64,000 nucleotides of DNA. Source: Promethearchaeota archaeon. GTDB taxonomy: Archaea > Asgardarchaeota > Lokiarchaeia > Sigyniarchaeales > SOKP01. The stretch lies in contig JBHLNF010000003.1 in the NCBI GenBank assembly GCA_048937405.1, forward strand, positions 64,001 through 128,000, written 5' to 3'. The translations under genes were made by a program, and so were the position numbers. The number at the start of each line of letters is the position of its first letter. Positions within the stretch are counted from its first letter, which is position 1. The notes beneath the pieces were generated by a model. It saw only the letters and a program-made list of their open reading frames with translations. It was not told the DNA's origin and did not search any database. This document shows positions 22,395-46,400 of the stretch, in pieces.

Positions 22395-22456
22395 TATTTT
22401 TCATTAAGAGTATAAAGAAAATTTAAATAAAAATGATCAAATAGGTGCCAGATTAT

Positions 22457-25400
22457 ATGAGTAAAATAAAACAGGAACCAAATGAACTTAAATTGTCTAA
22501 TATGAAAAACAAGGAGAGATTCTACAACATAAAATTATCAAAAATTACTAATAAAAATAGGCTTTGTCAATATAATGGACAATTTAATGAAATTAGAAGA
22601 TTTAGGCAATGGCTATATAGAAATAATCTGTCTTTTTTAAAATTTAAAGAAGAGTTGCAAAATATCTGGAGTATTTTCAAGCGATATGAAGAAACTAAGA
22701 TGTACACCACACATGATCTTCTTTTTATGAAGATAATTAGACAACGAAATATTAATTCCTCCTCACTTATCATCTCTAAAGAATTCCATTCTATTTTGAA
22801 TAAAGAGAAAATGCAATTGTATCAATTATTAAAAAGAATTTCTGAAAATTATAAGCATCAAACTCATGTAGGGTTTTTAGATTATTATTCTTCAGATAAT
22901 CAAGAAAGACCTATTACCTCATCAAGTGCAAGTGGTCTATTAACTAAAGAAATAGGATGGAAACAAAATCGAATTATTCCCTATGATGATCCAACAAGTA
23001 GGGAAGTATGGGAGGAAAACCAAATTCTAGAATATCACCTTGCACAAAAAGAAGAAATTACTCAAAAACGCTTATTGGAAAGAAAAAAACTTTATAAAAA
23101 AGATCTGCAAATACAAAAAAAACTCGAAATAGAATACCGAACAAAATTAGATGAAGTCTCTAATGATTTACGTTGGATAAGATTGTTAAACAATAATAAT
23201 GATTTTAATGTTATATCAATTCTCAAGGAAAAGGAAAAATTTGAACACTTTTTTGTAGAAAACAACTTACCAGATCAAGAGTATATTGCTTTTCTTAGAC
23301 TATATAAGGAGATAAAAAAAAGATATAATTTTTTAAAAAAAATCGGATACCAAAAACACACTTCGTTATCATATAGAGAGGCTCAGTTAAATTTCCTAAA
23401 AGAACAGGAATGTTTAATTAATGATTATTTTAATGGTATTAAAAGAAATAATGAATTTATAAAGCAAACATCTTCTTTCAATAAACAAGCCCGTCAATTT
23501 ATTAGAAACATTATTAAAAATAATTCCTCTCTTAATTTAACTTCAGAACACCCAGAATTCTTGTTTATTAATCATGATAAAGAAAAGATTGAGAAAATAC
23601 CATATTACTTAGATTGTATAAACGATTTGTTGATTTTAGCTCAAAATAGAAAATATGTTAAAAAAATCTTGACAAAGAATATTAATTCTATTAAAATACA
23701 GAAGAAGAACAATCATAAAAAACAAGAGAAATCATCAGAAAAAGAAAACCTCTATTCAAAAAAAATTTTTAAAAATAAATTTGCCAAAAATTTTGTGAAA
23801 TCTTTACCTTTGATAAGTTTGGTTTTGGTACCTCTTTTAATGGTGTTTTCTCCTGGAGATAACTTTTATTCTGGATATTTATTAACTTACTTTCCTTTTA
23901 TGCAAGTTCTAATCTTTACTATTTGTCTTTTAATATACACTTGGGATCTAGTTTTGTCAAAAGCTCAATTATTATTTGTTACAGTATCGCCGATAATTCT
24001 TTTTAATCTTATAGTACTGATCAGTGAAATTTTCGGAGCGAGAGTATCTTTGTATATAACTCCAATTATGCTGATCCCTTCATATTTTGTATTAAGAAAT
24101 ATCCCTAAAAAAATCGAACGTGAATCTGAAAATTTAAAGCATTTATACCACAAAAGTAAAATATTAATTCTGTGGGTTTTGCTATCTATATCTTTTGTTC
24201 TTTTTTGGATAATTTTTGTTTTTTTTCCACGACTTCTATTTGTACCTGCATTTATAATAATTGTATCTATTGTTTTGTTTACTAAAAAATGTAATTATCA
24301 AAAGAGCAGAATTGTTGACCAATTAAAGAAAAAGTACTTTGACTATCGCTATCGAAAAAGTTCTCAAAAAGAGTTTTCATGCTATAATGCGAACAATTAT
24401 AGAGCCGCCCTATTAATGGCAATATTTCTTGTATTTATGCCATTACTTTTCTCAATTAATTCTATTGTTCGTATTGACTGTCCAGATCTTCAATTTTCGC
24501 GAATACCCCAGGATTTAAGACTTAAAACAAGTGATATAGATTATGATAACTTAGAATATCTTTCTTCACTCGATGTATTAGAAGACTTATCATTCAATGG
24601 CAAGTTTATTGCAAGATGCCAAATATCACCTAATTGGGGTGCAAGCGCTTCAATTAGAGTTCGCTTAATACCTAAAAACGTGACTCCAGTAGAAGGGTAT
24701 CAATTAAAAAAATTCTATGATATTTATTCCAAAGATAAAACAGGTCCTTTAAAAAATTATAGTCTAATTACTCATATTTCATTAAACGAATTAGATCTAT
24801 TACCAGGGAAATATGAGGCAAAGGTATACTACACTGAAATATCAGGATTTTCATATAGAATTGCTGAACCAAAAATATATGAAGTAACGTTAGAAAAAGA
24901 TGCCTTGAAAATCCTACCCACCCACCCATTTGATTTAGGAGAAGATGTAAATTACGGAGCGGTCTATACTTTTGAATATGAAAATTCCTGGAATATCACT
25001 TTTGATGGGAGATTAACAAATTCATTGGAAGAAGGTATTCAAGCAAATTTAACCTTATTTCTTGAGGACCATAACAAATGGGTCAATATTGCAAATATTA
25101 CCACGACAGAAAATGGCTCATTTTTCTTTGAGTATGCAAAATTTGGCTCCTTCGAGGTAAATGCGTTGGCTAAAATTGAGTTTGCGGGGGATGATCTTTA
25201 TGAACCCCTTATGTACGAAGAATATGCGGGACTTGAATTTTCCATTGATGGAGGAAGATTTTTTAGGGATGAGGATGGAGATGGGTATCCTGATTGGCCA
25301 TATAGTTTGTATGATTTGCTTGAAGCGCTAAAAGCGCAGGATGAGTATTATTCGAATGCTCTCGATTTTTTTGATGAGTTTGATACGGGGTACGGTTCTA

Positions 25401-28400
25401 CCACAACAGAAACCATCCACGGTTATACCGGTACCTTGAACGGCAATACAGCATGGGGATCGGGTGTTCGGGATTACGGACTTGTTCTTGATGGAGATGG
25501 TAATATTATGTATGATATCAATGAGTTCTTTAATATCTATATGTATGCTACTTATTCAATTCTTTCCTATGAATATTTTAGTGGTGGTGGAACATATGGA
25601 TCAACAGGTTCACCGACCACCACTTCCAGCGAGATAAGGACAGCGGGTGGTGAACCTGTAGCTGAGATATATTCTGCCCAGACTGCACTGGATATCAATA
25701 GAATAGTGGGTGGTGGGGGTAGCTTTGATAGCACCTTATCGGCGGGAACCGTAGCAAATGTAAATAGGGACATATACATAAGTGAATCAACAGAGTTACA
25801 TCCTACATCGTCGACCACAAGTGTTGAGAGAGGTGGTGAGGACTGGTCGAACCCAGGGAATGTGCAGTCCCAGGATAATGTCTACGCTTCTGCCGATTTG
25901 GTAGAAGGTGGTGGGAGCGGTGTTATCATTGAGGATTATGTGGATAGTGATACCTCGGATGTGGATGGGGTACCTGATGAGGGGACCTTAAGTGATTTCA
26001 ATAATATGCAAACGGTGGATGCCACCCATTCGACTATTACCGAGGAGGGTATTGGTGGTAGTGGAGGTACTTTCGGGTATGGGATAGGAGAGGGGAATAC
26101 AGTGACATCAAACGGCTTTTTGTATGTGGCCGGTGTTACGGGTTCCACGATTGCCACCTTTACGGGAGATGGGGTGGTAGAGAGTATTTGGATAGACATT
26201 TATGAGGATTACGGTGGAGTGCTTGATTTTTATCTGGGTACCATATCTGGAACTAGTTTTGTGTTCAAACAGTACGATCCGATTTGTTCTATTGATCCTT
26301 CGGTTGTGGGTTGGCAGGAGTTTACAGCCCCTGATGATTTTACGGCGTTTATGGTGGAAGCGGGGGATGTGTTGGGCTTTTATAGCAGTACCAGTGCGGT
26401 AACGGTAGGAAGATCTAGTTCGGGGTCGTATATGTCCTATCATTACAGTAGTGCGACTCGTCCGTATAGCGGAAGTGTTACGCTTAGCTCTTCGACGAGT
26501 AGGAGATTAGAGATCTTGGCAACGGCAAGTCCGCTTTCGTCTGATTATGTAGCAGAGCAAGAAGTGCAATTTACTGATGTAATGGACTTTATGGCAGTGG
26601 AAGAGCTGTGTATTAACACGGGTAGTATGGGTGCAGAAGACCTGGCGGTGGAATACTGGGACGGAGATTCTTGGGAGGTGATTGCCTCAGATTTAACCGC
26701 ATCAGCCTGGAATAATTATTCTGTGTCATTAGATAGTTCAGCTTTTACGGTTCGTTTTAGCGACGGTACCAAGACGGGAGATACCACTACGCAGGATAGC
26801 TGGACTATCGATGCAATGTTGTTGAAATACTCCGGGGGGGGTGTTAATGAGGATTATGTGGATAGTGATACCTCGGATGTGGATGGAGCGGGAGATCTCG
26901 GAGCATTGGCTGATTTTGATGATATGAAGGCAACAGATAGTTCTTATTCGACGCTGACCGAAACATCTGGATCAGTGGTGTGGTATAATGGTACGACTCC
27001 CAGTGATTTAATATTGGTTACGAGTCCTGATATATCCGGTACAGCGGTAACTTATACCACTTTTAATGAGGGCAATCTTGCTACTGATGATGATGCGTAT
27101 GGAGGTTTTAATATCCAAGACGAAGGTAGTGGGAATCCAACACAACAGGTGTTTCACTATTTTGATTTTGATATATCCGGTCTTGGAATTAGCGGTTCTG
27201 AATTAGACCAATTAATATTTGAGGCGGAGTATTATTTCCACGGTGGTACCTCTCTTGCTCCTGTTTCATCTGCTGATGTGTGGGAAATGGAAGGTAATTC
27301 CATCGATAGCGCTATTATGATTTATGATTGGACTGCATTATCGTGGTCGGTAATGGGGAGTATGGATTTCTTGAATGAAAACAATCTAGCAAATTGGGAC
27401 CAAACCAGTGATACAAATGCCGAGAGACCGTTGATTCGATCTAAAACCTCGGGATTCACGGACGGTCATATTAGTGGTAGTGGAATTATCCGCATCATGT
27501 GTAATATCACAGGCACTTTTCAAGGAACTTCCTATGACGGAGTCGGAGTAGTTGATTATGCTAAAATAGATTTCTGTTACTCCTCGGGAAGTGAGTATCA
27601 ACTGGAGCAGGAGGTACAATTTGAAGACATTCCTGATGAGGCGGATCAGATGCCAATAAAGGAGTTATGTATTAAAACGGGTAGCATGGGAGCGGAAGAC
27701 TTGGCGGTGGAATACTGGAACGGTGATTCTTGGGAAACATTATTCTCAGATCTAACAGCTTCTTCGTGGAATAATATCAGCATCTTAGGTTATCTATCAG
27801 CACCGACCTTTATTATTCGTTTCAGCGATGGTGCCAAAACTTCGGATGTATCAGGAGATGTGTGGAATATCGATGTGGTGTTGATTCATCTTGAGAATTC
27901 CGGCGGCGGAAGTGGTGGAGGAAACTCAGAATCGGATTGTTTACGTATTGATTTAGATTACATTTTGCCCGGAGCGGATCTTATAGAGGGATTAACTATA
28001 GATGGTATTGAGGTTCGCATTGATAGGCACGCAAGTGTAGCAAGTGCTCTTCTGGATTATTGGGTACAGCTACGCAATGCGTCGGGTCCGAAAGGTGATA
28101 ATAAGGCAAGTGCGGTGTACTGGGATGCTACTGACACGGACACCTATACGGTGTATGGAAGTTCGTTCGATGTATGGGGAACATCATGGACGGTAGCCGA
28201 GATTAACAGTGGTGGATTTGGAATAGACATAGTGGTAAACGCAAGTACTAACAGTATTGCTTATATAGATCATGTGATTGTATTGGTGTATTATTCAGGG
28301 TTTGTGTCTGGAAGGGAGTGGCAGAATCCAACAGGTGCGCAGGTACAAGATGATATAGTTACCTTTACAGAGTTTGAGGGATTGATCGAAAGTGAATCTG

Positions 28401-31400
28401 ATTGGTTGAGGTTAACTGATTTTGGCTTTATGATCCCCAGTACGGCAATCATTACCGGAATTGAGGTGGCTATGGATAGGTATGCGAATGTAAGTTCTAT
28501 TTATAGTAATGGTTTGTATTTACTCAAGTCTGGTGTGGAAGTTGGAATTGGAAAAGATATTGGAACTATATGGGACACCGTTGATGATGATAATTATGAT
28601 GTGTTCGGAGGTCCCGGAGAGTTGTGGGATGAGTCGTGGAGTTATTCTGATATTAATGATCCTGAATTTGGGATTCAATTGTCCGTATCTTCTATAGAAT
28701 CTTTTGATAGAAAAGCCTGTATTGATGATTTGAATATAACTATATATTATATCGAGCCGGAAGTTACTGCTGAGGTGTGGTTTGATGCGTTAAATTCCTT
28801 GGCACAAGACGATAATAGCGTCTATGTAGTGTTTAATGCAACGACAGAAAATAGTTCAAATTGGCTACGGTTGAGTAATTTTGGCTTTTCACTTCCCTCT
28901 GATGTGGTTATTAATGGTATTACGGTGGAGGTAGATAGAGCGGCAACTCAGAGTGCTGCGATCAGAGACGGCGAGATCTATCTGCGGAAGACAAGCGGTC
29001 GGGTTGGTGATAATAAGGCAAGTGCCTCGTGGTGGGATACTGTGGATGATGATGTGTATGATAGCTATGGTGGATCAACAGATTTGTGGGGGACTACATG
29101 GTCTTATTCTGATATTAACGATCCAGAGTTCGGAGTGGATCTGTATGTGGAAAATTTCGGAACGGGTGATGTCAATGCCAGTATCGATCATATAGTAATT
29201 ACGGTGGATTATACTCTACTCCCTCAGAATCAGCAACCCTGGGTGAATTCTCACTATGCGGGAGATCAGGATGATGATGAAACTTATGCCTCGTTTAGCA
29301 CGTCAACAGAAAGCAGTTCTGATTGGCTGATGCTGACAAATTTTGGTTTCTCTTTGCCATCAGATGCGGTAATCGATGGTATTACAGTAGAAATAGATAG
29401 GTTCGCAACCCAAGCATCTTCGATTAGAGACGTGGCGGTGTATCTAATGAATACAAGTGGCCCAGTTGGTGATAATAAAGCCAGCGCCTCGTGGTGGGAT
29501 ACCATGGATGATGATAACTACGATAGTTATGGCGGTGCATCTGATTTGTGGGGGATTACTTGGGACTATTCAGATATCAACAATCCTGATTTCGGTATGG
29601 TGATGTATGTGGAGTATCTAGGGTCTATGGCTACTGAAGCCAGAATTGATCATGTTCGTATTATCGTCAATTATACGATTCAGCCTACATTACAGCAGGA
29701 TAGCGGTGTTGTACGTCCTGATGGGGATGTTATGACTCAGTGGAATGCGTCGACAGCAGGGGATCATTATCTCTTACTTAATGAAGGTATTATCGATCCC
29801 ACGGTACCCAATACTAATAGCGGGTATATCTTTACTTCCAGTTCCAGTAGTGGATCATATATTATTGATGAATTTACGATGGAAACACTTGATATCAGCA
29901 GCGGAAATATCACACAAATCGAGATTAAAGTCTACGGCAATGAAACAATAAGTATTGATTCTACCATAGATGTATATTGCGGTGGTAGCTGGCTAGGAGC
30001 GCAACAACTAAATATGGGCACAAACGGATGGTATACCTATACCTGGAATGGGTTAAGTTTATCACAGGCGGATTTAGATGGAATGCAGGTAAAGTTTAAT
30101 TCAATCGTTCCCGATCCGATTCTTTCCAATCCAACCTACGAAGATTTTGATTTTGTACAATACGGAGATATTGTAGATCATATTCTCGGAAGTTCAAATA
30201 GCCAAACCGTAATTACCTCGTGGATTTTTCCAACCGCATTAACTTCAAATGTGAGTGAAAACGGATTGAATAATGTATTTATTTCAAAAAATGGTAATCT
30301 AGAATTGGGAATCAGCGAAGATGGACATCTACAGGTGTATATGAAGACAGTCGGTGCTGAAGCAACCGCCGAATATGGTACTTTTGGAGGAATAGACTTG
30401 GACCAATGGACCTATATTGCGGTGCGATATGATAAGGGTGATGTTGATGTGCTTATCGGGGATGCTTGGTACACCTCGGCAATCGGTGATGTTCCAGAAC
30501 CATGGAACGGTGGTGGAAATTTTATTAGTGGTGCTGAATTTATCATCGGTGCAGAACTTACTAACTATATCTGCTTTACAGGAAGATTAGATGAGGTAAG
30601 TCTGTTTAATCGATCGGTTTCTGATTCAGAGATTGAGCATCACGGTACTCGATCAATTCCTCCCTCACTTGATTTTCATCTTGAGTTTGAAGAAAATACT
30701 GGTTACTCTACCTTCGATTCCGTGCATAATTACGAAGGGACTTTAGAAGGAAATACAGCGTGGGTTAGTGGGTATGATGGTTACGGTCTCAATTTTGATG
30801 GACAGGGTACTATTGTGTATGAAGAAAGATTTGCATCATATATGTATGCCACCTATTCGATTATTTCCTATGAATATTTTAGTGGTGGGGGTAGCTTTGA
30901 TAACACCTTATCGGCGGGAACCGCAGCAAATGTGGATAGGGATTTAGGTAGTAGCAGTACAGAACTTACTCGGTCTCCAGCTACAACGACCTCGGTTGAC
31001 AGAGGCGGTGAAGACTGGTCGAACCTAGAGAATGTGCAGTCCCAGGATAATGTCTACGCTTCTGCCGATTTGGTAGAAGGTGGTGGGAGCGGTGTTATCA
31101 TTGAGGATTATGTGGATAGTGATACCTCGGATGTGGATGGAGTTCCTGATGAGGGGACCTTAATTGATTTCAATAATATGCAGGCATTGGATGTAATATA
31201 TGCAACTATCACAGAGGTTGGTGATAGTGGAGAGGGAGGTACTTTCGGGTACGGGATAGGAGAGGGGGATACAGTGACATCAAACGGCTTTTTGTATGTG
31301 GCTGGGGTTACGGGTTCCACGGTTGCCACCTTTACGGGAGATGGGATGGTAGAGAGTATTTGGATAGATATTTATGAGGATTATGGAGGAGTGCTTGATT

Positions 31401-34400
31401 TTTATCTGGGTACCATATCTGGAACTAGTTTTGTGTTCAAGCAGTACGATCCGATTTGTTCTATTGATCCTTCGGCTGTGGGTTGGCAGGAGTTTACAGC
31501 CCCTGATGATTTTACGGCGTTTATGGTGGAAGCGGGGGATGCGCTGGGCTTTTATAGTAGTACCAGTGCGGTAACGGTAGGAAGGTCAAGCTCAGGGTCG
31601 TATATGTCCTATCATTACAGTAGTGCGACTCGTCCGTATAGCGGAAGTGTTACGCTTAGTTCTTCGACGAGTAGGAGATTAGAGATCTTGGCAACGGCAA
31701 GTCCGCTTTCGTCTGATTATGTGGTGGAGCAAGAAGTGCAATTTACTGATGTAATGGACTTTATGGCAGTGGAAGAGCTGTGTATTAACACGGGTAGTAT
31801 GAGTGCAGAAGACCTGGCGGTGGAATACTGGGACGGAGATTCCTGGGAGGTGATTGCCTCAGATTTAACCGCATCAGCCTGGAATAATTATTCTGTGTCA
31901 TTGGATAGCTCAACCTTTACCGTTCGGTTTAGTGATAGTACCAAGACGGGAGATACCACTACGCAGGATAGTTGGACTATCGATGCAATGTTGTTGAAGT
32001 ATTCCGGGGTGGGTGTCAATGAGGATTATGTGGATAGTGATGCCTCCAATGTGGATGGAGTTTCTGATTTAGGAAATTTAATTAATTTTGATGATATGAA
32101 GGCAATAGATAGTAGTTATTCGACATTGACCGAAACATCGGTAGGTGGGAGTAATATAGAGTTTGTTGATTCTACCGAAGTAATCGGTAGTCAATCAATG
32201 TCTTTAAGTGTTCCTTCTGTACAAAACGGAGATTTTATGATCACGATTGTGGCTCATTCTGATGATAATCCTACTACAACACTTACACCTCCTTTGGGAT
32301 GGACATTGCAACGGGATAAGACAAATATGGGTACAACAGCGGTTTCACCTCCGGTGATTTATGTGTATTACAGAATTGCGAATAATGAACCGTCGTCTTA
32401 TATCTGGAGTTGGGATACCGCAGGTGGTGTAGTGGGTGTGTGTCTGGCTTACAGAAATGTTGATACTGTTACAGCAATAGATATTGATTCTTTAAATGCC
32501 CAGACGAGTTCTGGAACAGATGTCATATCACCGAGTATAGTGACCAATAATGATGGGGATTGGATAATTTCGATAGAGTGGCATGACGATGATGATGGTG
32601 TAACTGGTCCTTCTGATAGCGGGTTCACTGTACGACATGATGTGCAAACCGCAACAGGAGGGAATGGATTGGGGATAGGTGTTGGTGATGAGTATCGAGC
32701 TACTGTTGGTTCAACAGGAACGAGAACTTGGACCCTTTCCTCTTCTGAGGAGCGGAGCGGTATTATGCTTTCCATTACTCCAGCTGCGGGTTCAAGCGAA
32801 TATCAACTGAACCAGGAGGTGCAATTTGAAGGCATTCCTGATGAGGCGGATCAGATGCCAGTACAGGAGTTATGTATTAAAACGGGTAGCATGGGAGCGG
32901 AAGACCTGGCTATGGAATACTGGGACGGGGATTCCTGGGAAGTACTTGCTTCTGATTTAGTAGCCTCTTCGTGGAACAATATCAGCATCGTAGGTTATCT
33001 ATCATCAGCGACCTTTACCGTTCGGTTCAGCGATGGTACCAAAACCTCGGATGGATCAGGAGATGTGTGGAATATCGATGCGGTGTTGATTCATCTTGAG
33101 AATTCTGGTGGTGAAGGAGGAAGTGCTGAATCAGATCTTTTACGATGCACTGATTTTGATTTTTCCAGTATTCCAGATACAGCAACAATAGATGGTATTA
33201 CTGTAGAAATTGATAAGTATACGGATGTATCTGATGCTATTTCAGATTATTCCATACGCCTTAGAAATTCAGGTGGTCCAAAGGGAAGTGATAAAGCCAG
33301 CGCTTCGTATTGGTCTACCTCTGATACTGATACTTACACGGTCTATGGCAGTTCAACTGATCTGTGGGACACTTCATGGATGGTTTCTGAGATTAAAAGC
33401 GCAAATTTTGGGGTAGATATTATAGCAGAAACGGGTACCAGTGCCAGTGCGTTTATTGATCATGTACAGATCAAAATAAATTATATCGAATCTTTTTCAG
33501 GTAGGGAGTGGCAAAATCCGAGTAATGCAAATACTCAGGATGATGTTGACACTATTGTGGTATTTACTACTACTTCTGAAGATACTTCTGATATATTACG
33601 ACTTACAAATTTTGGATTTATAATTTCTGATATCGTAAATATTGTAGGTATCGAAGTGGGATTTGATCGTGAGGCAAATATTACAAATTCTATCACCGAT
33701 GGCTATCTAAAATTATTGAAAGCTGGATCTCCAGTAGGAGATGATAAAGCGACGACAACACCTTGGACGGTTGGAGACGATGATACATATGATATATTTG
33801 GCGCTTCCGATGATCTGTGGGGTACTTCGTGGACATATTCTGATATTAACGATAATGGGTTTGGAGTGGAGTTGTTTGTAAATTATACGGGTTCTTCCAA
33901 TGCTGAGGCTAGAATTGATCATATCCATATTACCGTGTATTATACGGTACCACCATCTTTACAGCAGGATAGTGGTATAATACGTCCATATGGGGATGTT
34001 TCTGCTCAGTGGAATGGATCTGATGTGGGAGATCATTTCAGTTTATTGAATGATATTGTTATAGATCCTACCATTCCAGATATCAACCTCGGATATATTT
34101 TTTCTTCCAGTAGAAGCTCTGGACCGTATATTGTTGATGAATTTACTATGGATACATTGGATATCAATAATGGTAATGTAACGCAAATTACCATAAAAGT
34201 ATACGGCAATGAAACCGATATTGATTCTAGGGTGGATGTGTATTGTGGTGGTAGTTGGTTAGGAGCTAAACAGTTGAATATGGGTTCGATCCCAGGATGG
34301 TATATTTATACTTGGAGCGGATTAAGTTTATCTCAGGCTGATCTTGGAGGGATGCAAGTGAGATTCAACTCGACCGTTCCCACGCCAGGACCAATAGAAT

Positions 34401-37400
34401 TTTATGAGGATTTCGATTATGTGCAATTTGGAGATATTTTAGATAGCACCTTTGATACAACCGAATTTACGATATGTGGATGGGTTAATCCAACTGCATT
34501 TTCCGATGTAGAAAGTTCCCATGGTGTGAACAACGTCTTCTTCTCAAAGGAGGGCATCCTGGAATTGGGAGTAAATGAAAGCGGTTATGTAGAGGTCTAT
34601 CTTGATCCGAATAACTTGCCTGACGCAACCGCAACCTACGGTACCTCGGGAGCGGTTCAAATAGGCCAGTGGAATTTTCTTGCGGTACGGTATACCAGAG
34701 GAAATGTTGATGTGATAATTAATGATGTTTGGTACACCTCTGCGGTGGGAGGTACTACGGAGCCGTGGAGCGGAGGGAATCAGCTGGAGAATGGTGGCAC
34801 CTTCATTATCGGTGCAGAACTGACTAATTATACCTGTTTTGCAGGGAATATAGATGATGTGAGAGTGTATAATCGCTCATTAACGTTTAACGAAGTTGAA
34901 GAAATTCGGTTAGGGAATGAACTTAGACTGGAATGCACAGTTTCACGAGAAAATGGTGCGGGTGGATGGGTACCTATTACTTCGGGAGAGCTAATCGATA
35001 GTTATATTCACTTTGAATGTGAAAAAATGTATGGTGAAATGGTAGCCCTTGAAACAGTTGAGTTTTACATAGCGACATATGAACCTACAATGTTAGAAGA
35101 TCCAGTTCCCGATGAATGGAGTTTGATTAGAAGCTACTCCTATAATCGGGATCATTATTCGTTTGTTGTTCACAGTAGAAATCTACCAGACGAACCCACC
35201 TGGTATTTCATTGTTCGAGTGGTATGTTCAGATCAGAACGTTACGTTTAGTATATATAGTAATTCGTTTGGTATTAGTCATTTCGAAGAGTCTGTAAATT
35301 TTACCTATGTCAATATTGATGGGCGTGTTAATCATAATTCTCAAATTGGCGTGTTACCACTAGAGAGATTTAGCTACCACATAGAATCTATTAATCTATA
35401 TGTAAATTATTCTGGGTCGATTGATAAAGTGAATAACGTGCCTTTCACATACAATGATATGTATTTTAATAATTGGTTACTTGAACTTGATGAATTAACA
35501 CAATGGGTATTAGATGAAGGATTATTACCAGGTGAGTATATCATCAATTTCATTGTTGAAGCAAACTTTACTTTCGGACCAGAATTTAACTATTATATGT
35601 ACAACTATACGATGGGTAATATTACTTTAGATATCGAAAGTCCAGATATTACATTAAATATACAACACAATCCATTTGAAACGACATATACAGATGAAGA
35701 AGATCACTTATTAACAGCGCAGCTAGATTTTATAGATGATCACTTTTCATATGTAAGGCTCGATTACATGTATCATACCTATGAAACTCAGGAAATTTGG
35801 AGGGATTACGGTATAGAATTTACAGGATCGTCCCCTAGTATGAATATTACGTTTGACATACTCAATTTTAGAGATGATAACATTTCTATGAGGTTTATTG
35901 GCTATGACGATTTGGGTAATGAAAAAATTCTAGATGAAGCCAGTTTTTGGTTCCTAAAAGATATGAACAACCACCGTGATTTTGTAGTAAACGGTATTGA
36001 TGAGAATTATTTGTATTCTCTCGATCACAGCGGAAAAATCGATCTTGATGTAACTATATATCCAGTTGATAATGATATCACCAAAGTAACGCTTACAACT
36101 ATGTACGAGAATTTTAAACTCAATAACACAGTTATAGAAAATGATCATATCTACTTCAGCGATACGAGTGTAGGTGAGATAAATATTAAACTAAACAGTA
36201 TCTATTATGAAGTATTTGCAACTGATTTTCTTCAGATTCCAGTCACCATACGATTATATCAGGATGATAATATAATAGCAACAAAACAATTTACCATTAT
36301 CTCAACCACAAAGGTGTTTGAGGATCCCATAGAGATATCTGGAATTGATATCAATTTAGATTATAATGATGAAGTGGTATATGAAGAAAACTTTAATGAG
36401 TCAAATTGGAATTTATACGGAAATAATCCACACACATTTGATGTATCATCATCTACGATTAATAACTATTTAAATAAAAATCACTCTTTAAAAGAGTCAT
36501 TTTATAGTTATACAGGCGAATATAGTTTAGAATCTCCTTCAGGCTCTATTCACTTCAATGAAGACGATAACCACTGGTACGTATTTGATAAGAGCAATAG
36601 TAGATTATATCAATATAATCCCGATTGGACATATACTGGCACATTTTACAATATTGATACATCATCATTTCCCTCATTTGAACCTACTTCTATTTATTAT
36701 GAAGATGATTGGTATGTATCTGGTACAAATTCTGAAGATTATTTATATTCCTATCTCAGAACATCTACATCCAGCAACATACCTTTAAATAATAAGTATG
36801 AAATAGTTGAAACCCCATATGGGATTTATTTTTCGGATTTGAATGGTCGTTTTATTTATAAGACTTCTGATGAGGGAAAAACTTTTACAACGGTAGTAGA
36901 TGAATCACAGAGTGTAACACGTATTAAAGGTCTTTTGTTTGATGAAAATACTAATCGTCTATACTTTTTACTGTCGGATAATATCTATTATGATGAGTAC
37001 TCTCTAAAATCAAAATATATAGAATTAGATAATAATGATAATGTTGTTGAACGATATAATATATATTTTCAAAAAATGTCTTTATCACCCATTGATAATT
37101 TTATTCATCAAAATAGAAAATATGAATTTTATGAATATCAAGAACCCAGTACAGCGGATATAATATTTGAAATAAGAGATCAATCAGGACCTTCGACATG
37201 GTCATACAATATGGGATCTACTATAAATCATTATGGATCATTTCACCATACTTATCCAACTCTCGTAGGAAATAATCTATGGTTCTTGGGTGGTTGGGAC
37301 GATGGAAATGTTGAAATATGGAGGTTCAGTTTAGTCTCCAAGGTTTTTACAAAAATGAAGGATTTAGGAGCCAATACTAAGATCCCTTTAACACCTATTT

Positions 37401-40400
37401 ATCAGCTGTATGGAGAACTTGCGTATAATGGACATGATCATCTTTGTTTTATAATTGAAGGTGTATCTGATGACCGACGTTATTATTGGAATTACTCGAT
37501 TTCTACAAATATAGCAATTAAAGGAGCAGAATGTGACGTTTCGTTTATGTTAAATAAATATGCAGATGGATATACGAAAGCTTTTGATCGTGAACAAGGT
37601 ATAATATATTTACTAACTGATAACGGATTAGAAACATTCTATGAAGAGGATTTTCAGGCGCCTATCTCAGTTATAACTGAAAACTATTTCTGGACATTCG
37701 ATAAAAAATTCTACAAGCTTGAATATCCTAACTTATTGAAATTTGATTATGATTGGAGGATATATTCTGGCTCTCATTATGATATTGATGTTAGTAACAA
37801 CGGTCTTAATTCTATGTGTTATCAGAATGGATACTGGTATGTGGCTGATGGTAATTTTATAAAGAAATTTAATGCGGAGTGGGTATATCAAACAGAATAT
37901 TTTGTAGGTTCTGAAGATACACCGATATCTCTTAAGTTTAATGAAGATGATAGTTACTGGTATATGCTGGGTGAATATAGTTCAACGGTGTATAGATATG
38001 ATTCTAACTGGGTATATACAGAAACATCATATAATATAAATCAAGACGCAGATCCAAGAGGGATTTATTATCATAATGGATACTGGTGGATGTGCGGTAA
38101 CGAACGTGACAAAATCTACAAATACGATAATCTTTTTACGGTTTCTAAAATATATCAGGGAAATGGAATTTTATACTGCCAAACGGGTGCTACTGAAACA
38201 ATATCATTAAGAAGTAATAGTCTTGATCTTGATCTAATACCTGGAGATATTATTGAAATTACATATAACACCACTTCGACACACGAGATAATGTTTAATT
38301 TGTTAAGCTCTGGAATACAACAAAAAGGATTTAAATTGATACAAGAGGGGAATAAAAATTTCGGTACTAAGACTGTAGGATTTATTCTTGATAATTTTGA
38401 TGATTTTTATGATAATATAGATCAACTCGAATTTACTGGAACATTTGACGATACTCACAATTTAGTAATAGATCACATAAAGATATACCGCATTCCTCCG
38501 AATATTTTTATGAATGTGTCTTGTGGGAATTCGTATAACAACTCTTATAATTTACCATTTATAGTAAATAACATCAATCCCTATGTTGAATTTTACAATT
38601 CCGAGAATGAATTAGTGCAAACAGTAAGGTTATTCTCAAATGTGAGTGATATGAGAGTACAACTTTATTCCAATGAATACTTATACCTATACACAAGTAC
38701 AAAACTACCAGCAAACACGCATTTATGGTGGGAAATTGGTAGCGGAGAATTGTATCTTGTAGATGCTGCTGATCAAACTCAATTGTATGTATCTACCGAT
38801 GAAGGAATGACCTGGATTCAGGTAGATATTGATCCTTCTGACACTTCTGGAGATGCTAAATCACGAGATCACAACATCCAATCAGCGTGGCATGACAACG
38901 TAAGTCAGGTTATATGGTTTGTTGATTGTGATGATGGAACGGCAGACAATTTCGATGTGTGGAAACTTGATTACAGTACGAATAAAACGCACCCAACTAT
39001 AACAGAAATAGGAACTTCTAGTGGTGCTGATGCAGGTAGTGTGATGTTTACGGATATTTTTGTATATAGTTCAGATACATATGTTGTAAATTATGAGGAG
39101 AGATCAGGCACTAAAGTCGTTGTCGTTTGGGATGTGGATACTGCACCATTTACTCAGGAGGGTATACACTATCCAGGCAGTCCAGCGACACATGTTGAAC
39201 TGTCTTTTGTTACACTTATAGGTGATGATGTCTATCTTACTGAGGAACTTGACACAGGACAACCATCACCCATGGATTCAATTCGCATACTGCGTTTTGA
39301 TCTTTTTACCTCATCATGGGGCGCTCCAGATTATCTAAGTGGGTATGATATGCTAGAAAGGGGTATCGTCTATGATGGTAATGATACTATATATTTTATG
39401 GCTGCTAACATTGCTGATGGCAAGAATTATGTATGTTCTTATTCTATTTCAACCTTTACAATTACAGTGGGACAAGAAAATAACATTTCATTTATGTTAA
39501 ACCGAAATGCGGATGGATATGGAAAAGCATTTCATACAAATGGCATAATATATCAAATTACTGAAAACGATATTGAGTTGTTTAATACTAGATCTTATGA
39601 TGATGATGTAATCGCTATTACAGAAGGATATATTATGACCGCAAACGGTAAGTTATACATCTTTGAAAACATTACAATTACGCGGAACAGGTTTAAGGTA
39701 CCATTTCCAGATTTAAATCCTGGAGAGGAATTGGCGGATATAAGAGTTGTTACTATTAGCGGTACCTCATATGAATTTTATTATTTTATAGATGCAACTG
39801 ATCAGGAAATTTACATCAATTTACTAACAGATGAAAACATTGATGGTACATATAATGAGATATATATACGGTACGGATTTACTAACACATCTATCGGATT
39901 TCATCAGTTTTATGGATATTACGACTTAAAATCAACTCTTTTTATCCCAGAAGGGAATTATACATTAAAAGGCTACTTTCATGATATTTCGGGTACAGTT
40001 TCTAAATTTTTATCAAATACAACACATGTAATTGATTTTGAAAGTCCTCGGGTGTTCAAGCAATTTGAAGAAAGTGTAATAATTAATAATCTAAAAGATG
40101 GATTTATTTCATTCATTATTGAAGATTTTAGCGGTATCGACGAGTGCTTTTTCCTTGATCAAATTTTTGATGGGTATTGGGATGTTCAAGGTAATCTTTA
40201 TACCTATTACTTTACTGATCCCCATGCGACTATATTTTTATCTGAATTTTCAACCCCTTCTTTGTGGAATTTCAGCGTCGCCTATGGGAAATTGGACTAT
40301 CATAATCTTGAACATATTGATAATATCAATACAACAATTTATGGTGAGTATACCACATATGACACTCCAGAACAACCCAGCGACGTCATTGTAATAGATG

Positions 40401-43400
40401 GAATTATTACAGATTATGGAAATCTCGAATTTATTGATAATAACGAAACAACAATTGATGCCGAGTATAGCGGTAGTTCATATGACATTAATGCAGAAAT
40501 ATTAATCGATGGGATACCGCCAAATATAAATGACTGGAGGTCCTACCTCAGATTTAATCATAGTTCTACTGCAACTATTGATTTTGATATATGGGATTAT
40601 ACATTATCCGATTGGCAAGATATAAGCGCAGGCCATTATCCAGCAACCTACAGTTTTGAAAACGATCAAGCTGGGCAAAATCCTAGTGAATGGGATATAG
40701 ATGAAACAGGAGGGACTGTCGACGTTCTCGCTACTTTTCAAAGACATGACAAAGTTGTAAAAATTACAGATAGTAGCGGTTCTGATTATCCACGATTTTA
40801 TCAAAGTATCGATTATTTATCATATGGAAAGGTGGAATTTTGGATTTGTGCAGGTGAGACTGATAGAATGCATCGTTTTGCGATTGTTGATTATATGGAT
40901 GAAGGACTTGAGTTTTATATGAGAAATAATGGGCAATTTTCTTATTATGATGTTAATGGGTATCATGATATAGGCGCATATATTACGAATCAATGGTATC
41001 ATATCAAAATAGAATTCGGTCTTACAGACTGGCATCTGTGGATAGATGGTGTTTCTAAGGATCAAGGGAATGGATATGGATATTATGGATATCGTATACC
41101 ATTTACTATTATGACTTTTGAAACAAATTCAGGGGAAACTGGCGCTGATTTTTATATTGATGCAGTAGGAACTTCTTGGTATTCAAAGAAATATAATATC
41201 GGGGACAATAAATACGCAACTCAATTATTATCTACTGATTTAATTAACAATCGCGTTGTAAAGGTACGGTATATAGCCACTGATTCAACCGATTTTGTAC
41301 TAGACATTGATCAACTCCGAGTAGATTACTATGATGATAAGTATAAAATAGAAGGAGAAATTGAATGGTCAGTAGATGATCCAATTTTATATTCAATCGA
41401 TTCGCTACGATTTAGTCAGTTTGTTGAAAACAGACTTGATAATTTTGATATATGGAATTATACATTAGGTAATTGGCAGGATATTTCAAGTGAAGACAGT
41501 CCATTTACACTTTCATCTGATTTTTATGACAGTAGCAATATTATAAAGGTTCGTTACATAGCATCTTCTGATACCACTTTTGGCTTAGATTTAGATCAGC
41601 TCAGAACTGATTACACAACTACAATACCAGTTGAAGGATTTGTATCCACATTCCATTTATTTGTTAAGGATACCGTGGGTAATAATAATACAATTGGTAT
41701 TTCACTCGCATTTGATGATGTGCCTCCTGCGATTGAAGATTTGTACATACATACCAAATATTGGAATGAATTACTGAGAATTGATATAAAGATCAAAGAT
41801 ACTTCTGATTATGATATTTCATTGATGTTAAAAAACATCATTAACAAAGCAACCTTTACTCGGTTGAAATACACCATCACAAATGTAGGACAAGATGAAT
41901 GGCAGATTTTGTTAGATACATCTCAACTGCCGAATGGCTTGTACGATATTTATCTCACCATAACAGACATAGCGGGAAATTCACTTATACATGTTATTGA
42001 AGACATATATTTGGATAACAGTCCCGTAGAATTTTTGTATCTTGAAGATAAAGTAATAATCGACGACATTTCGATGTATAGTTTTGTAATTGATGATGTA
42101 TTATATTTCAATGATAGAAAAGAAATAGCTATTTCTGCAATTGACATTACCTACGACGGTTTTAGCTGGAGTTTAATTGATCCAGCGCTGGGTATTCAAC
42201 AAGGGGTTCATAATATTACAATGTATATAACAAACGAGCTTGCTTATCACCCCGTTGTGTTATCAACCGAATTGAATTATGATACACTTTCATATGTAAT
42301 AATCGGCTATGGTACCTATCCAAATATTATATATGATACACAAGCCATCAAGGAAATCAAGCGGTTGAAAATTAATGATGTAGTTATAGAAAATAACGGG
42401 TTTTCGACCTCATTTACTGGAGGTTCATATGTATTGCATATTGATCCTCATTATACATATTTACTATCCCCATTAAATACAATTGAAGCCGAGTTCTATG
42501 AACGCATTGAAGACGGCATTTATTTTGAGTTTGATAGTATTAGTATGGAATGGGTTTTGAAATCAAGTGGAAAAGATTTCTTTAATATCTCTGAGTATCT
42601 GTCACTTTCTGAAGGAGAAGAATTTTACTTTTGGTTCGAATTGGAAGATGGAATGGGTGTTGCCAAAAATGGTTCGGTATCATATAATCCGTGGTGGAGA
42701 TACACAGGGATTAATTATCCAGTTTTTCCAGTTAACGAAACATCTCCAAAAAGCATATACTACCAAAATGGATATTGGTATGTGCTTGGAGATTATAACA
42801 ATAAAGTATTTAAGTACTATTCTAATTGGATACCTACTGGTGAGTCATATTCCATTGCTTCTGAGGATAACCTACCACAATCGATCTATTACTATGATGG
42901 ATATTGGTGGGTATTGGGTCAATTTAACAAAACTGTGTTTAAGTACAATCCAGACTGGACTTATACTAACTTAAACTACACGATAGATGAAGATGCCTGG
43001 CCAACTTCAATTTTTTATCATAACGGATATTGGTGGGTGCTCGGAAATGCTCAATCAGAAGTATTTAAATATAACTCTGATTGGACATATTCTGGAGAAT
43101 CATTTTTACTCGAAACAGAGGGAGATCTAAGTGACATCAATTTTGAGGGAGGATATTGGTATGTCTGTTGCAATGATAAAAGAAGGATATATAAGTACGC
43201 AGTTGATTGGACATATTTGGGAGAATCTTTTTCAGTAAACGCGAATCCGACCGCTATTCATTATGCAAATGACTACTGGTGGGTTCTGGGAGAACAGTCA
43301 AGAATATACAAGTATATGTGGCAGACTTCGAATGAGACAAGGGGAAATATCTTTATCACCCATACCTATAAAGGAATTTATGATAATTCAATTGAACGGA

Positions 43401-46400
43401 TAGGTGATGGGAACTTATTTGAATGGAACCTCGGTACTACGTCTAATGGTACAGGAGTTGTGATTTTCGGTACAGATGAGTACAAGGATAGCTTGATCCA
43501 GATCGATCCGTCATCAGTGCTTCCTGATGTGAACGATGATATGGATATCGCGAGAGTAATGATTTATGGAACTGAAAATCCTGAGTATTACATTGTGGAT
43601 ACTGCGTGGTGGAATCTTGATGAAGGTACAGGAAACATTGCTGAAGACTCTATTAATGGAGATCACAATGGTATAATTTATGGGACGACCTGGGATGATG
43701 GATTAAACGGTAAAGCACTGTATTTTGATGGTATAAACGATTATGTTTCAACAAATCTTGATATGACCTCTATTTGGACTGCTGGGGATCCGATTCACAT
43801 ATCTGTTTGGTTCAAAACTACCGCAACGAGTGGTTATATCATCGCGGGAACTCCTGAAGGAGGTCCAGATATAGCAGTTCAAATGTATAATGGACAAGTT
43901 AGAGTTCGATTGTACGGCGATACAGTAGCGGCATCTGATAATGAAGAATATAATGATAATGAATGGCATCTTGTCGATTTTGGCTGTAATGAAACTGATT
44001 CTTATTTCTATGTCGATGGTGTATTACAATCAACCGCACCATCTATTGGAACCTTTAATCGAGAGACTTCCCTAATGTTTGGTGCCCGTAAAACTCCTGC
44101 TCAAGACTTTTATGAGGGTTATATTGATGACATTCGTATTTATCAATACGCGCTCTCAGGTGATCAGATTCAATGGTTATATAATGAAGGTAAAGGTAGA
44201 ACATCACTATGGGATTTTGTTGGTAGATGTTATTATGATGAAGTAGAAGATAGGTGGGTGTATTACTGGAATGACGAAACTGTTGATGATATTTCTTCTA
44301 GAACGTATCATTTAAAGAGCTATGTATTTGATAAAGCTGGTAATTACCTTGATTTTAACGAACATTACAGTGGAACTTATAGTTTTGAACACGATACAAT
44401 TGGATTCATACCTAATGGATGGATAGGTAGTTCGAGCGCACCTGTATATGTAGAGGTGATTGATTCGTGGGAAGCTCATAATAAAATGCTAAGAATACAT
44501 GATGATGGAATACAAACACCATTCGACTTGATTGCAGTAACCGAGAACATATTTAGTAGTCAGCAAACAAAAGGTACTATTGAGTTTTGGTGGGGCGCTG
44601 ATAATGTCTATGATTGGTCGCAATGTGTTGTCTACAACCAAGATACTTTTAAGTCAATTCGTGTAGTACTTTATCAGAATAAGTTTCAATACCATGATGG
44701 ATCATCATATCAACCTCTAGCTGATGTTTTTAACAATACTTTATATCATGTTCGATTAGTGTTTGATTGTGATTTAGATACATATGATATTTATCTGAAT
44801 GGGAATTTAGAAAAGGATGATGCTCAATTTTTATTTAACGCGGATTCTTTAAAATCATTAGATTTTTCAATGGCAGACGAAGATGGAGGTGGTGCAGATC
44901 TTTATGTCGATGCGATAGGGTACTCATGGGATAATGATTACAAAATCGGAGATAACAATTTTGAATTCGGACGTTCAGCGGTGCAAATCTATGATTTTGT
45001 GGATATCGAACTTGCCACTGACATCATTCTTGGAAAGGTGTTTGAGTACAACAGCACCTTACCACAAAATATACAAGAAATAACAGGAATTATTCAAGAT
45101 TACTTTGGCACTGATAATCTATGGGACATTATAGTTGAGTATTATAATCCGTTAGAACATGAATGGATACCTCTGGCAGTAGATTCATCGGTAATTACCA
45201 ACGGAAAGTACACAATTACCTGGGATATCAATCAGGATGAAACATTCTTGAATTCAATGTATTATTTAGAATATGAATTCCTTCCTTATGCAATTCCTAA
45301 TAGCGGTTCTGAATTGTGGGGATCATGGGGTACCTTTTATTCAGGTGGAGATTGGCAACCCATTGTTGTAACAAAACACTCTTCAGACGTCGATATTACT
45401 GTATATAAATTTGATGGCATAAACGGATGGCAGGTGGATACCCAGCGCAGTAGTGAAAATACTATACCATCGCTAAATGGTGAAGTATTCAAATTATTTG
45501 ATATCAACAATGACGGAGTGAGTGAAATTGTCAGGGTATCTCCCGCTCAAATTGATGTGATCTATTTAGATCTGGATGTGTGGGTACTACATGAAAATGT
45601 CACCTACATGAGTGGGTATGAATATTTTGCATTTGATCTATTTTATGATGAAGACTTCGATAAAACTATACTAGTTGTCATGCAAGAAAATATTGCTCAA
45701 GGAATCTTATCACTGTGGAAATATCAGTTTGATGCTCAATTTAACCTTGATTTGGTAAGACAGGTTTACTGTCCTTTAAATTTTTATCCATATACTATAA
45801 AAATTGTAAACGATTTTTCAACAAACGATAGAAACGCGATATTAGTAGGTGGGTTAATGGAAGGAGGCGCCTATTATTCTCAGCTTCTTGAATATGACCA
45901 GAATTTGGATGTACAAAAAGTAATTACAGAGGAAGTTCTGGGAAAAATTAGCGCTATTGAATATGAGCAAATTAACGGAATACATACGATTTTCCTTGGT
46001 ATGGATCGACTTGCAATCGGAAAAATGGATGCTGTAGTAGTACTGAAGAAAAAAGAATTTTCGGATGAATGGAATGAATTAGAATTAGGGGAGTTTGAAG
46101 AGGACATCAAGTTTAAGATTTTGGATCTTCTTTTTATCAATGATAATAATAATATGAAATTGATAACAGCATCAAACACGGGGGTGTTTCAAACATCGAT
46201 CATATATGTAGAAGACAAATCTACAATTAAAAGCCCTATTGTCGTGAAGAAGTTAATGCTACTTAAAGATGATTTGAACTCAGAAAGTCATCCTTTTCAC
46301 ACAATCGAAATTACTGATCGAGTGTATTCTATAGAAAGGGTATATTATAAGTTAAACAACAGATGGGTGGAATTGGGAGAATCAAAGTATGTTTATTCAA

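What the first reader, a model, noticed from the sequence alone, without database searches (positions are those of the whole stretch)
25931..33100. Socket-and-cargo cassettes: one host domain carries interchangeable tip domains
Seen: four copies of a host EDYVDSD.S.VDG..D.G.L..F..M...D...T(I/L)TE | cargo | (D/E)Y...QEVQF...ELCI.TG.M.AEDLA.EYW.G.SW...W.ID..L. Copies at 25931 and 31103 carry the same ~165-aa cargo. Copies at 26849 and 32021 are homologous up to ACCGAAACATC and again from EYQL.QEVQF, but carry unrelated cargos. One (26969-27592) is a jelly-roll-like domain. The other (32141-32797) has P.V..GD...P.GWT...YR.A..EP.SY.W...AY..VD, a domain type I associate with MshQ-like and phage tail proteins. 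Inference: recombination between conserved flanks swaps the ligand-binding tips, diversifying specificity.
Basis: partly seen in the sequence, partly recalled or inferred. Interest (0 to 1): 0.82.

Follow-up and report, generated by a model that had tools for sequence, protein, structure and literature searches.

The report
Split socket domain with swappable guests
Inside a 20,619-residue surface protein of a Loki-type Asgard archaeon, a small sugar-binding-module-like domain is cut open four times at the same loop to hold a complete foreign domain, and two near-identical copies hold unrelated guests; this is an archaeal counterpart of the 'split domains' that display binding modules on bacterial giant adhesins.

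Summary
Four copies of a ~43-aa N-part and a ~100-aa C-part lie at the stated coordinates in one giant ORF, and nowhere else in the genome.

An AlphaFold2 model of copy 4 (pLDDT 89.5) puts N-part and C-part into one carbohydrate-binding-module-like jelly roll. The 216-aa cargo C is a separate domain with a fold common in tailed-phage proteins, including mycobacteriophage minor tail proteins.

Natural 'empty sockets' exist. In 170 metagenomic relatives the N and C parts are ordered like balanced brackets.

Cargos A, B and C show no detectable homology (hhalign probability below 1%). Copies 2 and 4 are 80-97% identical in DNA up to the junction codons and random-like between them.

Across the family, sockets carry about 25 guest groups, including LamG and DUF2341.

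The swapping mechanism is only partly supported. Gene conversion of the flanks is not excluded. No donor copy exists in the genome. In 20 loci from two other genera, cargos co-diverged with their sockets in 16 of 17 close pairs. Ligand binding is inferred.

The principle is known from bacterial RTX adhesins, so this is a new variant. The scan had noted nested split domains only in this same protein, not on other DNA.

The parts
22445..64000 (+). Giant ORF: 13,852 aa in the window and 20,619 aa in the genome. It has a basic N-terminal region, several hydrophobic segments and a huge ectodomain.
25838..25909 (+). Putative N-terminal stub (EDWSNPGNVQSQDNVYASADLVEG) of the outer ~152-aa 'R' domain that would enclose sockets 1 and 2. 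The assignment is by eye only.
   Evidence: one search shows it resembles REWQNPTGAQVQDD...; the HMM score of 4.0 bits is no better than controls
25922..26050 (+). Socket copy 1, N-part (aa 1160-1202)
26051..26533 (+). Cargo A (aa 1203-1363). All-beta, no Pfam family. Homologues occur as stand-alone small proteins (P0132, P0138) and in the first socket of P0035.
26534..26836 (+). Socket copy 1, C-part (aa 1364-1464)
26840..26968 (+). Socket copy 2, N-part (aa 1466-1508)
26969..27583 (+). Cargo B (aa 1509-1713). Homologues are in P0039 (in a socket), P0177 (in a divergent socket in a multihaem cytochrome protein), and P0153 and P0178 (no socket). The fold is not resolved.
27584..27904 (+). Socket copy 2, C-part (aa 1714-1820)
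27926..28297 (+). Body of the outer R domain (aa 1828-1951). It matches the R-repeat HMM only from position 27 onward, so it lacks its first strands.
31010..31081 (+). Putative R-domain stub of module II (EDWSNLENVQSQDNVYASADLVEG)
31094..31222 (+). Socket copy 3, N-part (aa 2884-2926)
31223..31705 (+). Cargo A' (aa 2927-3087), 95% identical to cargo A
31706..32008 (+). Socket copy 3, C-part (aa 3088-3188)
32012..32140 (+). Socket copy 4, N-part (aa 3190-3232)
32141..32788 (+). Cargo C (aa 3233-3448). A separate ~216-aa beta domain whose fold is shared with ~200-250-aa tailed-phage proteins and mycobacteriophage minor tail proteins. The local scan of 176 proteins found 37 homologous domains.
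32789..33109 (+). Socket copy 4, C-part (aa 3449-3555)
33125..33490 (+). Body of the outer R domain of module II (aa 3561-3682). It also starts at HMM position 27.

Best explanation
The 'socket' is one ~140-aa beta-sandwich domain with a carbohydrate-binding-module-like jelly-roll fold. It belongs to an unannotated family found mainly in very large proteins of Asgard and other archaea. After its first three strands (...T-I/L-T-E) the chain leaves the domain, builds a complete, independently folding guest domain, and returns ((D/E)-Y-x-x-x-Q-E-V-Q-F...) to finish the sandwich. This is shown. By analogy with split domains in bacterial RTX adhesins, the socket would work as a stalk element that holds the guest away from the fibre axis of a membrane-anchored giant surface protein, with the guests as interaction modules. 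This is inferred. In this gene two sockets in tandem appear to be inserted in a further split domain (R), and the whole unit occurs twice. The two units are 80-99% identical in DNA except that the second socket holds B in one and C in the other, with the switch exactly at the junction codons. At some point a whole guest was therefore replaced inside an otherwise conserved socket. The most likely route is recombination with a homologous socket that carried another guest, possibly from another organism. This is inferred: the segment has raised GC3, and the socket was not found in 68 other sampled genomes of the same family. Such replacements recur across the family, but on evolutionary rather than strain time scales.
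For: One split domain:
- The AF2 model of copy 4 has pLDDT 89.5.
- Single-domain CBMs of 129-176 aa superpose on model residues 1/2..362-366 with 115-141 aligned residues (CBM86 6sgf: Z 10.4, rmsd 2.8, 123 of 129 aligned). That is more than the 107-aa C-part alone can supply.
- Other hits cover only residues 43-259, the cargo.
- Four natural sockets have the N-part directly followed by the C-part.
- N/C order is bracket-balanced in 111 of 170 proteins, against 38 after shuffling. Patterns include NNCC x52, NNCNCC x21 and one NNNNNNCCCCCC.

Unrelated guests:
- phmmer finds no similarity among the cargos.
- hhalign probability is 0.07-0.6% between the A, B and C families.
- 192 innermost guests form 30 BLAST clusters, about 25 groups after profile merging. 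They include Laminin_G_3 and DUF2341.
- The guests are autonomous. A occurs as stand-alone proteins, B occurs outside sockets, and C occurs in phage proteins and as a tandem pair in a bacterial protein.

Replacement:
- The DNA identity profile has sharp borders.
- P0035 carries A followed by a third kind of partner.
- P0039 carries B in the second socket, where most relatives carry a C-type guest.

Distribution and context:
- 629 representative proteins match.
- 60 of 301 genomes of the phylum match, but 0 of 68 others in the own family.
- GC3 is 0.34-0.40 over aa 1001-3500 against 0.22-0.31 elsewhere in the gene.
- RTX adhesin split domains are described in PMC12077191, PMC10865825 and bioRxiv 10.1101/2025.09.30.679566.
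Against: - No coordinates or PAE were available, so N/C packing rests on alignment ranges and aligned lengths, not on contacts.
- Z 8-10 to CBMs is only moderately above the background quoted by the tool (7-8).
- The folds of A and B are unresolved (pLDDT 53), so a shared fold cannot be excluded.
- No binding, localisation or expression data exist.
- No donor copy of B or C is present in the genome.
- The genus-level sample shows stable cargos in 16 of 17 close pairs.
- The 10 of 18 mismatches among sockets 80-89% identical come from a library clustered at 50% identity, which enriches for such pairs.
- The assembly of this repeated region could not be checked with reads.
Confidence: 0.72

Rival explanations
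1. No cargo moved in this lineage. Modules I and II are old paralogues that always held B and C. Gene conversion between them has homogenised the alignable parts (stub, socket 1 with cargo A, and both halves of socket 2) and stops at the non-homologous guests.
For: Identity along the modules is patchy: 95-99% over socket 1 and cargo A, about 80% in the N-part of sockets 2 and 4, up to 97% at the start of their C-parts, and only 50-65% with indels further out on both sides. This pattern is typical of conversion tracts. Neither B nor C has a second copy in the genome.
Against: Both cargos still had to enter homologous sockets at some earlier time. Relatives show other guests at the same position (P0035, P0039). 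This rival therefore changes the date of the replacement, not the principle.
Confidence: 0.3
2. Ordinary beads-on-a-string array: the EDYVD... segment is a linker or the last strand of the preceding domain, and 'cargo' and 'C-part' are simply consecutive domains.
For: In a linear reading the order N, cargo, C is also compatible with three consecutive modules. No contact map was available.
Against: Whole single-domain CBMs align across model residues 2..364 with more residues than the C-part contains. N directly abuts C in four natural proteins, making a contiguous ~140-aa domain. N and C counts match 4:4 in this genome and are nested like brackets in relatives.
Confidence: 0.04
3. B and C (and A) are highly diverged homologues of one ancestral guest, so nothing was exchanged.
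For: All three are predicted all-beta. The folds of A and B could not be modelled, so fold identity is untested.
Against: The flanks are 80-97% identical in DNA while the guests are at random-level identity, with a step change within a few bases; point mutation cannot produce that. hhalign probabilities are below 1%. Each guest has its own family of relatives elsewhere.
Confidence: 0.03
4. Assembly artefact: two strain variants of one module (one with B, one with C) were joined in tandem by the assembler because of the near-identical 1.1-kb stretch.
For: The genome has 29 contigs and 5.7% estimated contamination, and the repeated stretch is 95-99% identical. Reads could not be consulted.
Against: The modules differ in the number of R repeats (4 versus 2) and in 50-65% identical outer parts with indels. 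The frame stays open for 20,619 codons.
Confidence: 0.05

Closest known systems
'Split domain + ligand-binding domain' units of Gram-negative RTX adhesins (AhLap, FrhA, MpIBP and others; PMC12077191, PMC10865825, bioRxiv 10.1101/2025.09.30.679566)
   Same: A small beta domain in a giant surface fibre is interrupted after its first strand(s) by a complete guest domain whose termini lie together. Many guest types occur (CBM, vWFA, beta-roll, peptide-binding). Guests can themselves be split, and isoforms differ in their guests.
   Different: The host here is an archaeon with an N-terminal membrane anchor, not a type I-secreted protein with a retention module and RTX beta-roll. The split domain is a dedicated CBM-like jelly roll of its own sequence family (no Pfam match), not the usual Ig-like extender. 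It nests inside copies of itself, up to six deep in one metagenomic protein. The guests include a phage-tail-type domain, LamG and DUF2341.
Carbohydrate-binding modules with a beta-sandwich jelly-roll fold (e.g. CBM86 6sgf, CBM29 1wcu/1gwk, CBM11 1v0a)
   Same: Size and fold of the reassembled socket: Z 8.9-10.4, rmsd 2.8-3.4 A, 116-129 aligned residues.
   Different: No sequence similarity (5-16% identity). Pfam and PDB sequence searches gave nothing significant. No evidence that the socket itself binds sugar; here it serves as a scaffold.
Uncharacterised ~200-250-aa proteins of tailed phages and mycobacteriophage minor tail proteins (BFVD models, e.g. phages Gaia, Hawkeye, Shauna1)
   Same: Fold of cargo C: 119 BFVD matches at E <= 1e-3, with target-normalised TM 0.65-0.78 over about 210-250 columns for the small proteins. 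ESM Atlas viral clusters give TM 0.70-0.80 and feature score 0.96.
   Different: Sequence identity is 11-23%. These phage proteins have no characterised function. Here the domain is embedded in a cellular giant protein.
Other nested split jelly-roll stalk in the same protein
   Same: The same principle of split domains holding guests, in the same ORF.
   Different: A different sequence family: my N and C HMMs find nothing significant there.

Membership tests
RTX-adhesin-type split domain / projected domain unit (architecture class) | Host domain is interrupted by a complete guest domain and completed afterwards | tested here: met
   AF2 model with VIA alignments; empty sockets; balanced N/C grammar
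RTX-adhesin-type split domain / projected domain unit (architecture class) | Host domain is an Ig-like (BIg) extender | tested here: not met
   The best structural matches of the reassembled socket are CBM-type jelly rolls. The preprint 10.1101/2025.09.30.679566 notes that CBMs can occasionally act as split domains.
RTX adhesin (protein family) | [quoted passage not shown] | tested here: not met
   The host is a Promethearchaeota archaeon. The N-terminus is a basic region plus hydrophobic segments. Pfam on aa 1-4852 gives only Laminin_G_3. The C-terminal 15,000 aa were not scanned.
RTX-adhesin-type split domain / projected domain unit (architecture class) | Guest domain binds an external ligand | not testable with these tools
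   No binding data. Guest families include lectin-like LamG_3.
Beta-sandwich carbohydrate-binding modules (fold class) | About 130-150-aa jelly roll that superposes on solved CBMs | tested here: met
   Z 8.9-10.4, rmsd 2.8-3.4 A, 116-129 aligned. This is only moderately above the tool's stated background of Z 7-8.
Beta-sandwich carbohydrate-binding modules (fold class) | Sequence membership in a curated CBM family, or conserved sugar-binding residues | tested here: inconclusive
   No Pfam hit for the socket. PDB profile search gave only E 0.002 to an unrelated fucose lectin, with no stretch passing.
Phage minor-tail-type domain (cargo C) | Shared fold with tailed-phage proteins over the whole domain | tested here: met
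   BFVD Foldseek E 2e-13 to 1e-5, TMt 0.65-0.78; Atlas TM 0.70-0.80
Programmed cassette switching (pilin/VSG-type gene conversion from silent copies, shufflons, DGRs) | Silent donor copies of the variable segment elsewhere in the genome | tested here: not met
   phmmer of A, B and C against all six-frame ORFs of the genome finds only the copies in this gene.
Programmed cassette switching (pilin/VSG-type gene conversion from silent copies, shufflons, DGRs) | Dedicated recombinase or reverse transcriptase, and variation between close strains | not tested
   Reads were unavailable. Neighbouring genes were not examined for recombinases. The genus-level sample elsewhere shows stable cargos.

The most novel reading that the evidence does not exclude
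The socket is a dedicated 'display scaffold' of archaeal giant surface proteins. Its fixed insertion loop and conserved flanks would make it an evolutionary docking site through which complete binding modules are traded between archaea, bacteria and viruses. These modules include receptor-binding-type domains shared with tailed viruses. Loki-type cells would thereby get rapidly re-tooled, branched surface fibres for partner or virus recognition.
Probability: 0.15. Interest if true: 0.8.

Novelty: new variant of a known kind. Interest (0 to 1): 0.6.

Why it matters
Asgard archaea depend on physical contact with partner organisms, yet the make-up of their huge, unannotated surface proteins is largely unknown. 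This work defines a previously unannotated split-domain family: no Pfam match, 629 representative proteins, and matches in 60 of 301 sampled genomes of the phylum. The family has a simple grammar (N-part, guest, C-part, nestable). That grammar gives a practical rule for finding the likely interaction modules in such proteins, as split domains now do for bacterial RTX adhesins. It also shows that the 'project a binding domain from a split scaffold' design arose outside the bacterial type I-secreted adhesins, and that one of the displayed modules shares a fold with phage tail proteins.

Tried and rejected
- A joint AF2 model of copies 1+2 (A10, 9 rows) reached only pLDDT 53. Its fold search recovered just the socket halves and background-level hits for cargo B (Z 6.6-6.8), so no fold is claimed for A or B.
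- Deeper alignments for that job failed because MAFFT misplaced fragment rows on the repeated sockets (A5, A6, A7, A9).
- A single-sequence word search for cargo B found nothing. A profile search found only four proteins.
- ESM Atlas features for B were below the recognition threshold.
- Pfam gave nothing for the socket or for cargos A, B and C.
- PDB sequence searches with profiles of A, B, C and the socket gave nothing significant.
- Foldseek against PDB with the two-domain model gave only low-TM multi-domain hits such as reelin and baseplate proteins.
- The R-domain stub could not be supported statistically: 4.0 bits, within the range of the controls.
- The genomic context of the stand-alone cargo-A protein P0138 is a 1.6-kb contig and was uninformative.
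- The socket was not found in 40 relatives of the same order.
Full report
**What is there.** The window holds one frame that is open from 22445 to its end (13,852 codons). In the genome (contig C13) the frame runs for 20,619 codons. A neighbouring gene is 83-95% identical to genes of Promethearchaeota MAGs, so the host is a Loki-type Asgard archaeon. EDYVDSD starts at 25931, 26849, 31103 and 32021. QEVQF starts at 26558, 27608, 31730 and 32813. An alignment of the four units shows a conserved ~43-aa N-part, a variable middle and a conserved ~100-aa C-part. HMMs of the two parts find exactly four N and four C in all six frames of the 4.47-Mb genome.

**The sharp borders.** The four units belong to two paralogous modules about 5.2 kb apart.
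- From 25814 to 26953, DNA identity to the second module is 43-60 per 60 nt, mostly 56-60 over socket 1 and cargo A.
- It drops to 18-26 per 60 from 26954 to about 27570.
- It returns to 41-58 per 60 afterwards.
- At base level, homology ends after ...TTGACCGAAACATC (codons T-E-T-S) and resumes at the S-E-Y-Q-L codons.

phmmer finds no similarity among cargos A, B and C, or to anything else in the genome. Profile-profile comparison of their families gives probabilities of 0.07-0.6%. A step from more than 80% to random-level identity within a few bases cannot arise by point mutation. A whole segment was replaced, or the flanks were homogenised around two different segments.

**Is the socket really one domain?** Four lines of evidence say yes.
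- A word-based search with copy 4 and an exhaustive HMMER search with copies 1+2 returned many metagenomic relatives: 31 proteins and 629 representatives at E <= 1e-3. The named ones come from Promethearchaeota, Kariarchaeaceae, Hodarchaeales and Bathyarchaeota.
- I scanned 176 of these proteins with N and C HMMs. The order of parts behaves like brackets: NNCC (52 proteins), NNCNCC (21), NC (17), NCNC (11), NNNCCC (4) and one NNNNNNCCCCCC. 111 of 170 strings are balanced, against 38 when the order is shuffled within each protein. Most of the rest look like truncated contigs.
- Four sockets are empty, with the N-part running straight into the C-part to make a contiguous ~140-aa domain: P0028:31-169, P0044:565-709, P0069:116-257 and P0161:19-160.
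- An AlphaFold2 model of copy 4, built on 28 homologous units, has mean pLDDT 89.5. An all-against-all structural search put single-domain carbohydrate-binding modules at the top. The best was CBM86 6sgf: Z 10.4, rmsd 2.8 A, 123 of 129 residues aligned. CBM29, CBM11 and others followed at Z 8.9-9.6. All were aligned over model residues 1/2 to 362-366, with 115-141 aligned residues, which is more than the 107-residue C-part holds. Other rows matched only residues 43-259 or 151-258, which lie in the cargo.

I had no access to coordinates or PAE, so the N/C packing is inferred from these ranges, the empty sockets and the grammar. The Z-scores are only moderately above the tool's stated background.

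**What the guests are.**
- *Cargo C* (216 aa) is a well-modelled separate beta domain.
  - In BFVD it has 119 matches at E <= 1e-3. Many are 200-250-aa uncharacterised proteins of tailed phages, with target-normalised TM 0.65-0.78. Several are mycobacteriophage 'minor tail proteins'.
- ESM Atlas searches by shape and by features point to the same viral clusters.
  - The local scan of 176 proteins found 37 C-type domains. Two lie in tandem, without sockets, in a bacterial protein.
- *Cargo A* has five relatives in hand. Two are stand-alone small proteins that begin with Met (P0132, P0138). One sits in the first socket of P0035, whose second socket holds yet another kind of domain.
- *Cargo B* has four relatives. 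One is in the second socket of P0039. One is in a divergent socket inside a multihaem cytochrome protein (P0177). Two have no socket (P0153, P0178).
- The joint model of copies 1+2 was too poor (pLDDT 53) to assign folds to A or B. 'Jelly-roll-like' for B remains unverified.

Across the catalogue, 192 innermost guests fall into 30 BLAST clusters. That is about 25 groups after merging pairs that hhalign links. They include Laminin_G_3 and DUF2341; most have no Pfam family.

**Surroundings.** Each pair of sockets appears to be a guest itself. Directly after socket 2 (aa 1828-1951) and socket 4 (aa 3561-3682) lie copies of a ~152-aa repeat ('R', six copies in all). These two copies match the R-repeat HMM only from position 27 onward. 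Just before sockets 1 and 3 lies EDWSNPGNVQSQDNVYASADLVEG, which resembles the missing start of the R repeat (REWQNPTGAQVQDD...). The stub is too short to score above controls, so this outer level is plausible but not proven. In most relatives the outer host is another copy of the socket itself (NNCNCC).

**How often do guests change?**
- In the metagenome catalogue, 10 of 18 socket pairs that are 80-89% identical carry guests of different groups.
- On a FastTree of 192 sockets the guest group changes at least 82 times. The minimum possible is 24, and shuffled labels give 103-122.
- That library keeps one protein per 50% identity cluster. This removes pairs that share both socket and guest, so these figures overstate the exchange rate. 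The tree also rests on only about 140 columns.
- As a less biased sample I fetched 20 loci from species of two other genera found in a phylum-wide scan. Of 17 socket pairs at 65% identity or more, 16 carry homologous guests whose identity tracks that of the socket (for example 0.95/90% and 0.82/77%). Only one pair, at 65%, differs.

Guest replacement is therefore real and recurrent, but it is an occasional evolutionary event. Nothing here indicates strain-level switching.

**Origin in this genome.** The socket was not found in 40 relatives of the same order, including 24 species of the genus. It was also not found in 68 other genomes of the family in a 301-genome sample of the phylum, where 60 genomes have it, mostly in other families. 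Third-position GC is 0.34-0.40 over aa 1001-3500, against 0.22-0.31 in the rest of the gene; genome GC is 0.289. This suggests, but does not prove, that the socket-bearing segment was acquired horizontally and then duplicated.

**Mechanism and rivals.** The best-supported reading is a split scaffold domain that displays autonomous guest domains on a giant, membrane-anchored surface protein. At least one whole-guest replacement lies between two recently related copies. Three points remain open.
The patchy identity (95-99%, about 80%, up to 97%, then 50-65% outward) fits conversion tracts.
- Whether the donor was foreign. No donor copy of B or C exists in the genome.
- Whether the guests bind ligands.

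The beads-on-a-string reading and the divergent-homologue reading are disfavoured by the evidence above. A tandem mis-assembly of two strain alleles is unlikely, given the different numbers of R repeats and the uninterrupted frame.

**Comparison with what is known.** The closest described system is the 'split domain' of Gram-negative RTX adhesins. There, ligand-binding domains bud out after the first strand of an Ig-like extender. CBM, vWFA and beta-roll domains can also be split (PMC12077191; PMC10865825; bioRxiv 10.1101/2025.09.30.679566). The present case works like that system but is not a member of it.
- The host is an archaeon.
- The anchor is N-terminal and membrane-embedded.
- The split domain is a separate CBM-like family without a Pfam model.
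- It nests in itself.
- Its guest repertoire differs.

Giant genes in Asgard archaea have been reported (PMC8813620), but I found no description of this architecture in the two literature searches. Earlier notes of this scan describe nested split domains elsewhere in this same protein (e1-5562255) and on this stretch (e1-5562254). Look-alikes of the socket were indexed only in this genome.

**Verdict.** This is a new variant of a known design principle and is of moderate to good interest.

Noticed in passing
window 25445-32945 (aa 1001-3500 of the giant ORF): Third-codon-position GC is 0.34-0.40 here, against 0.22-0.31 in the rest of the same gene; genome GC is 0.289. The socket family was also not found in 68 other sampled genomes of the same family. 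Together these suggest that this segment was acquired horizontally.
   Followed up: partly
window 27926-29690 and 33125-33960: An unannotated ~152-aa repeat ('R': W.NP..QDD...DWLRLTNFGF...W.YSDIN...IDH..I.V.Y) occurs four times in module I and twice in module II. The first copy of each series lacks HMM positions 1-26. The only Pfam signal is a weak VIT hit (E 3e-4).
   Followed up: partly
P0132 and P0138 (metagenome proteins); L005:125-784: Cargo A has homologues that are stand-alone proteins of 182 and 219 aa starting with Met. P0138 lies on a 1.6-kb contig next to small genes. Their origin (cellular or viral) is unknown.
   Followed up: partly
P0177:352-706: A cargo-B-type domain sits in a strongly diverged socket-like frame (C-part E 0.003) inside a 1,460-aa protein with multihaem cytochrome Pfam domains. 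The split-and-display design may therefore reach beyond archaeal giant proteins.
   Followed up: no
P0031:38-441: A protein named as a Rokuibacteriota PQQ-like beta-propeller repeat protein carries two tandem cargo-C-type domains without any socket.
   Followed up: no
metagenome proteins; G206:C81 (10,138-aa frame): One relative shows six N-parts followed by six C-parts, a six-deep self-nesting. One Asgard genome has a 10,138-aa frame with nine C-part matches.
   Followed up: no
window 22445-25300: The giant protein starts with a ~450-aa Lys/Asn/Arg-rich region followed by several hydrophobic segments, rather than a signal peptide. This was seen in the translation and was also noted by earlier readers.
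   Followed up: no
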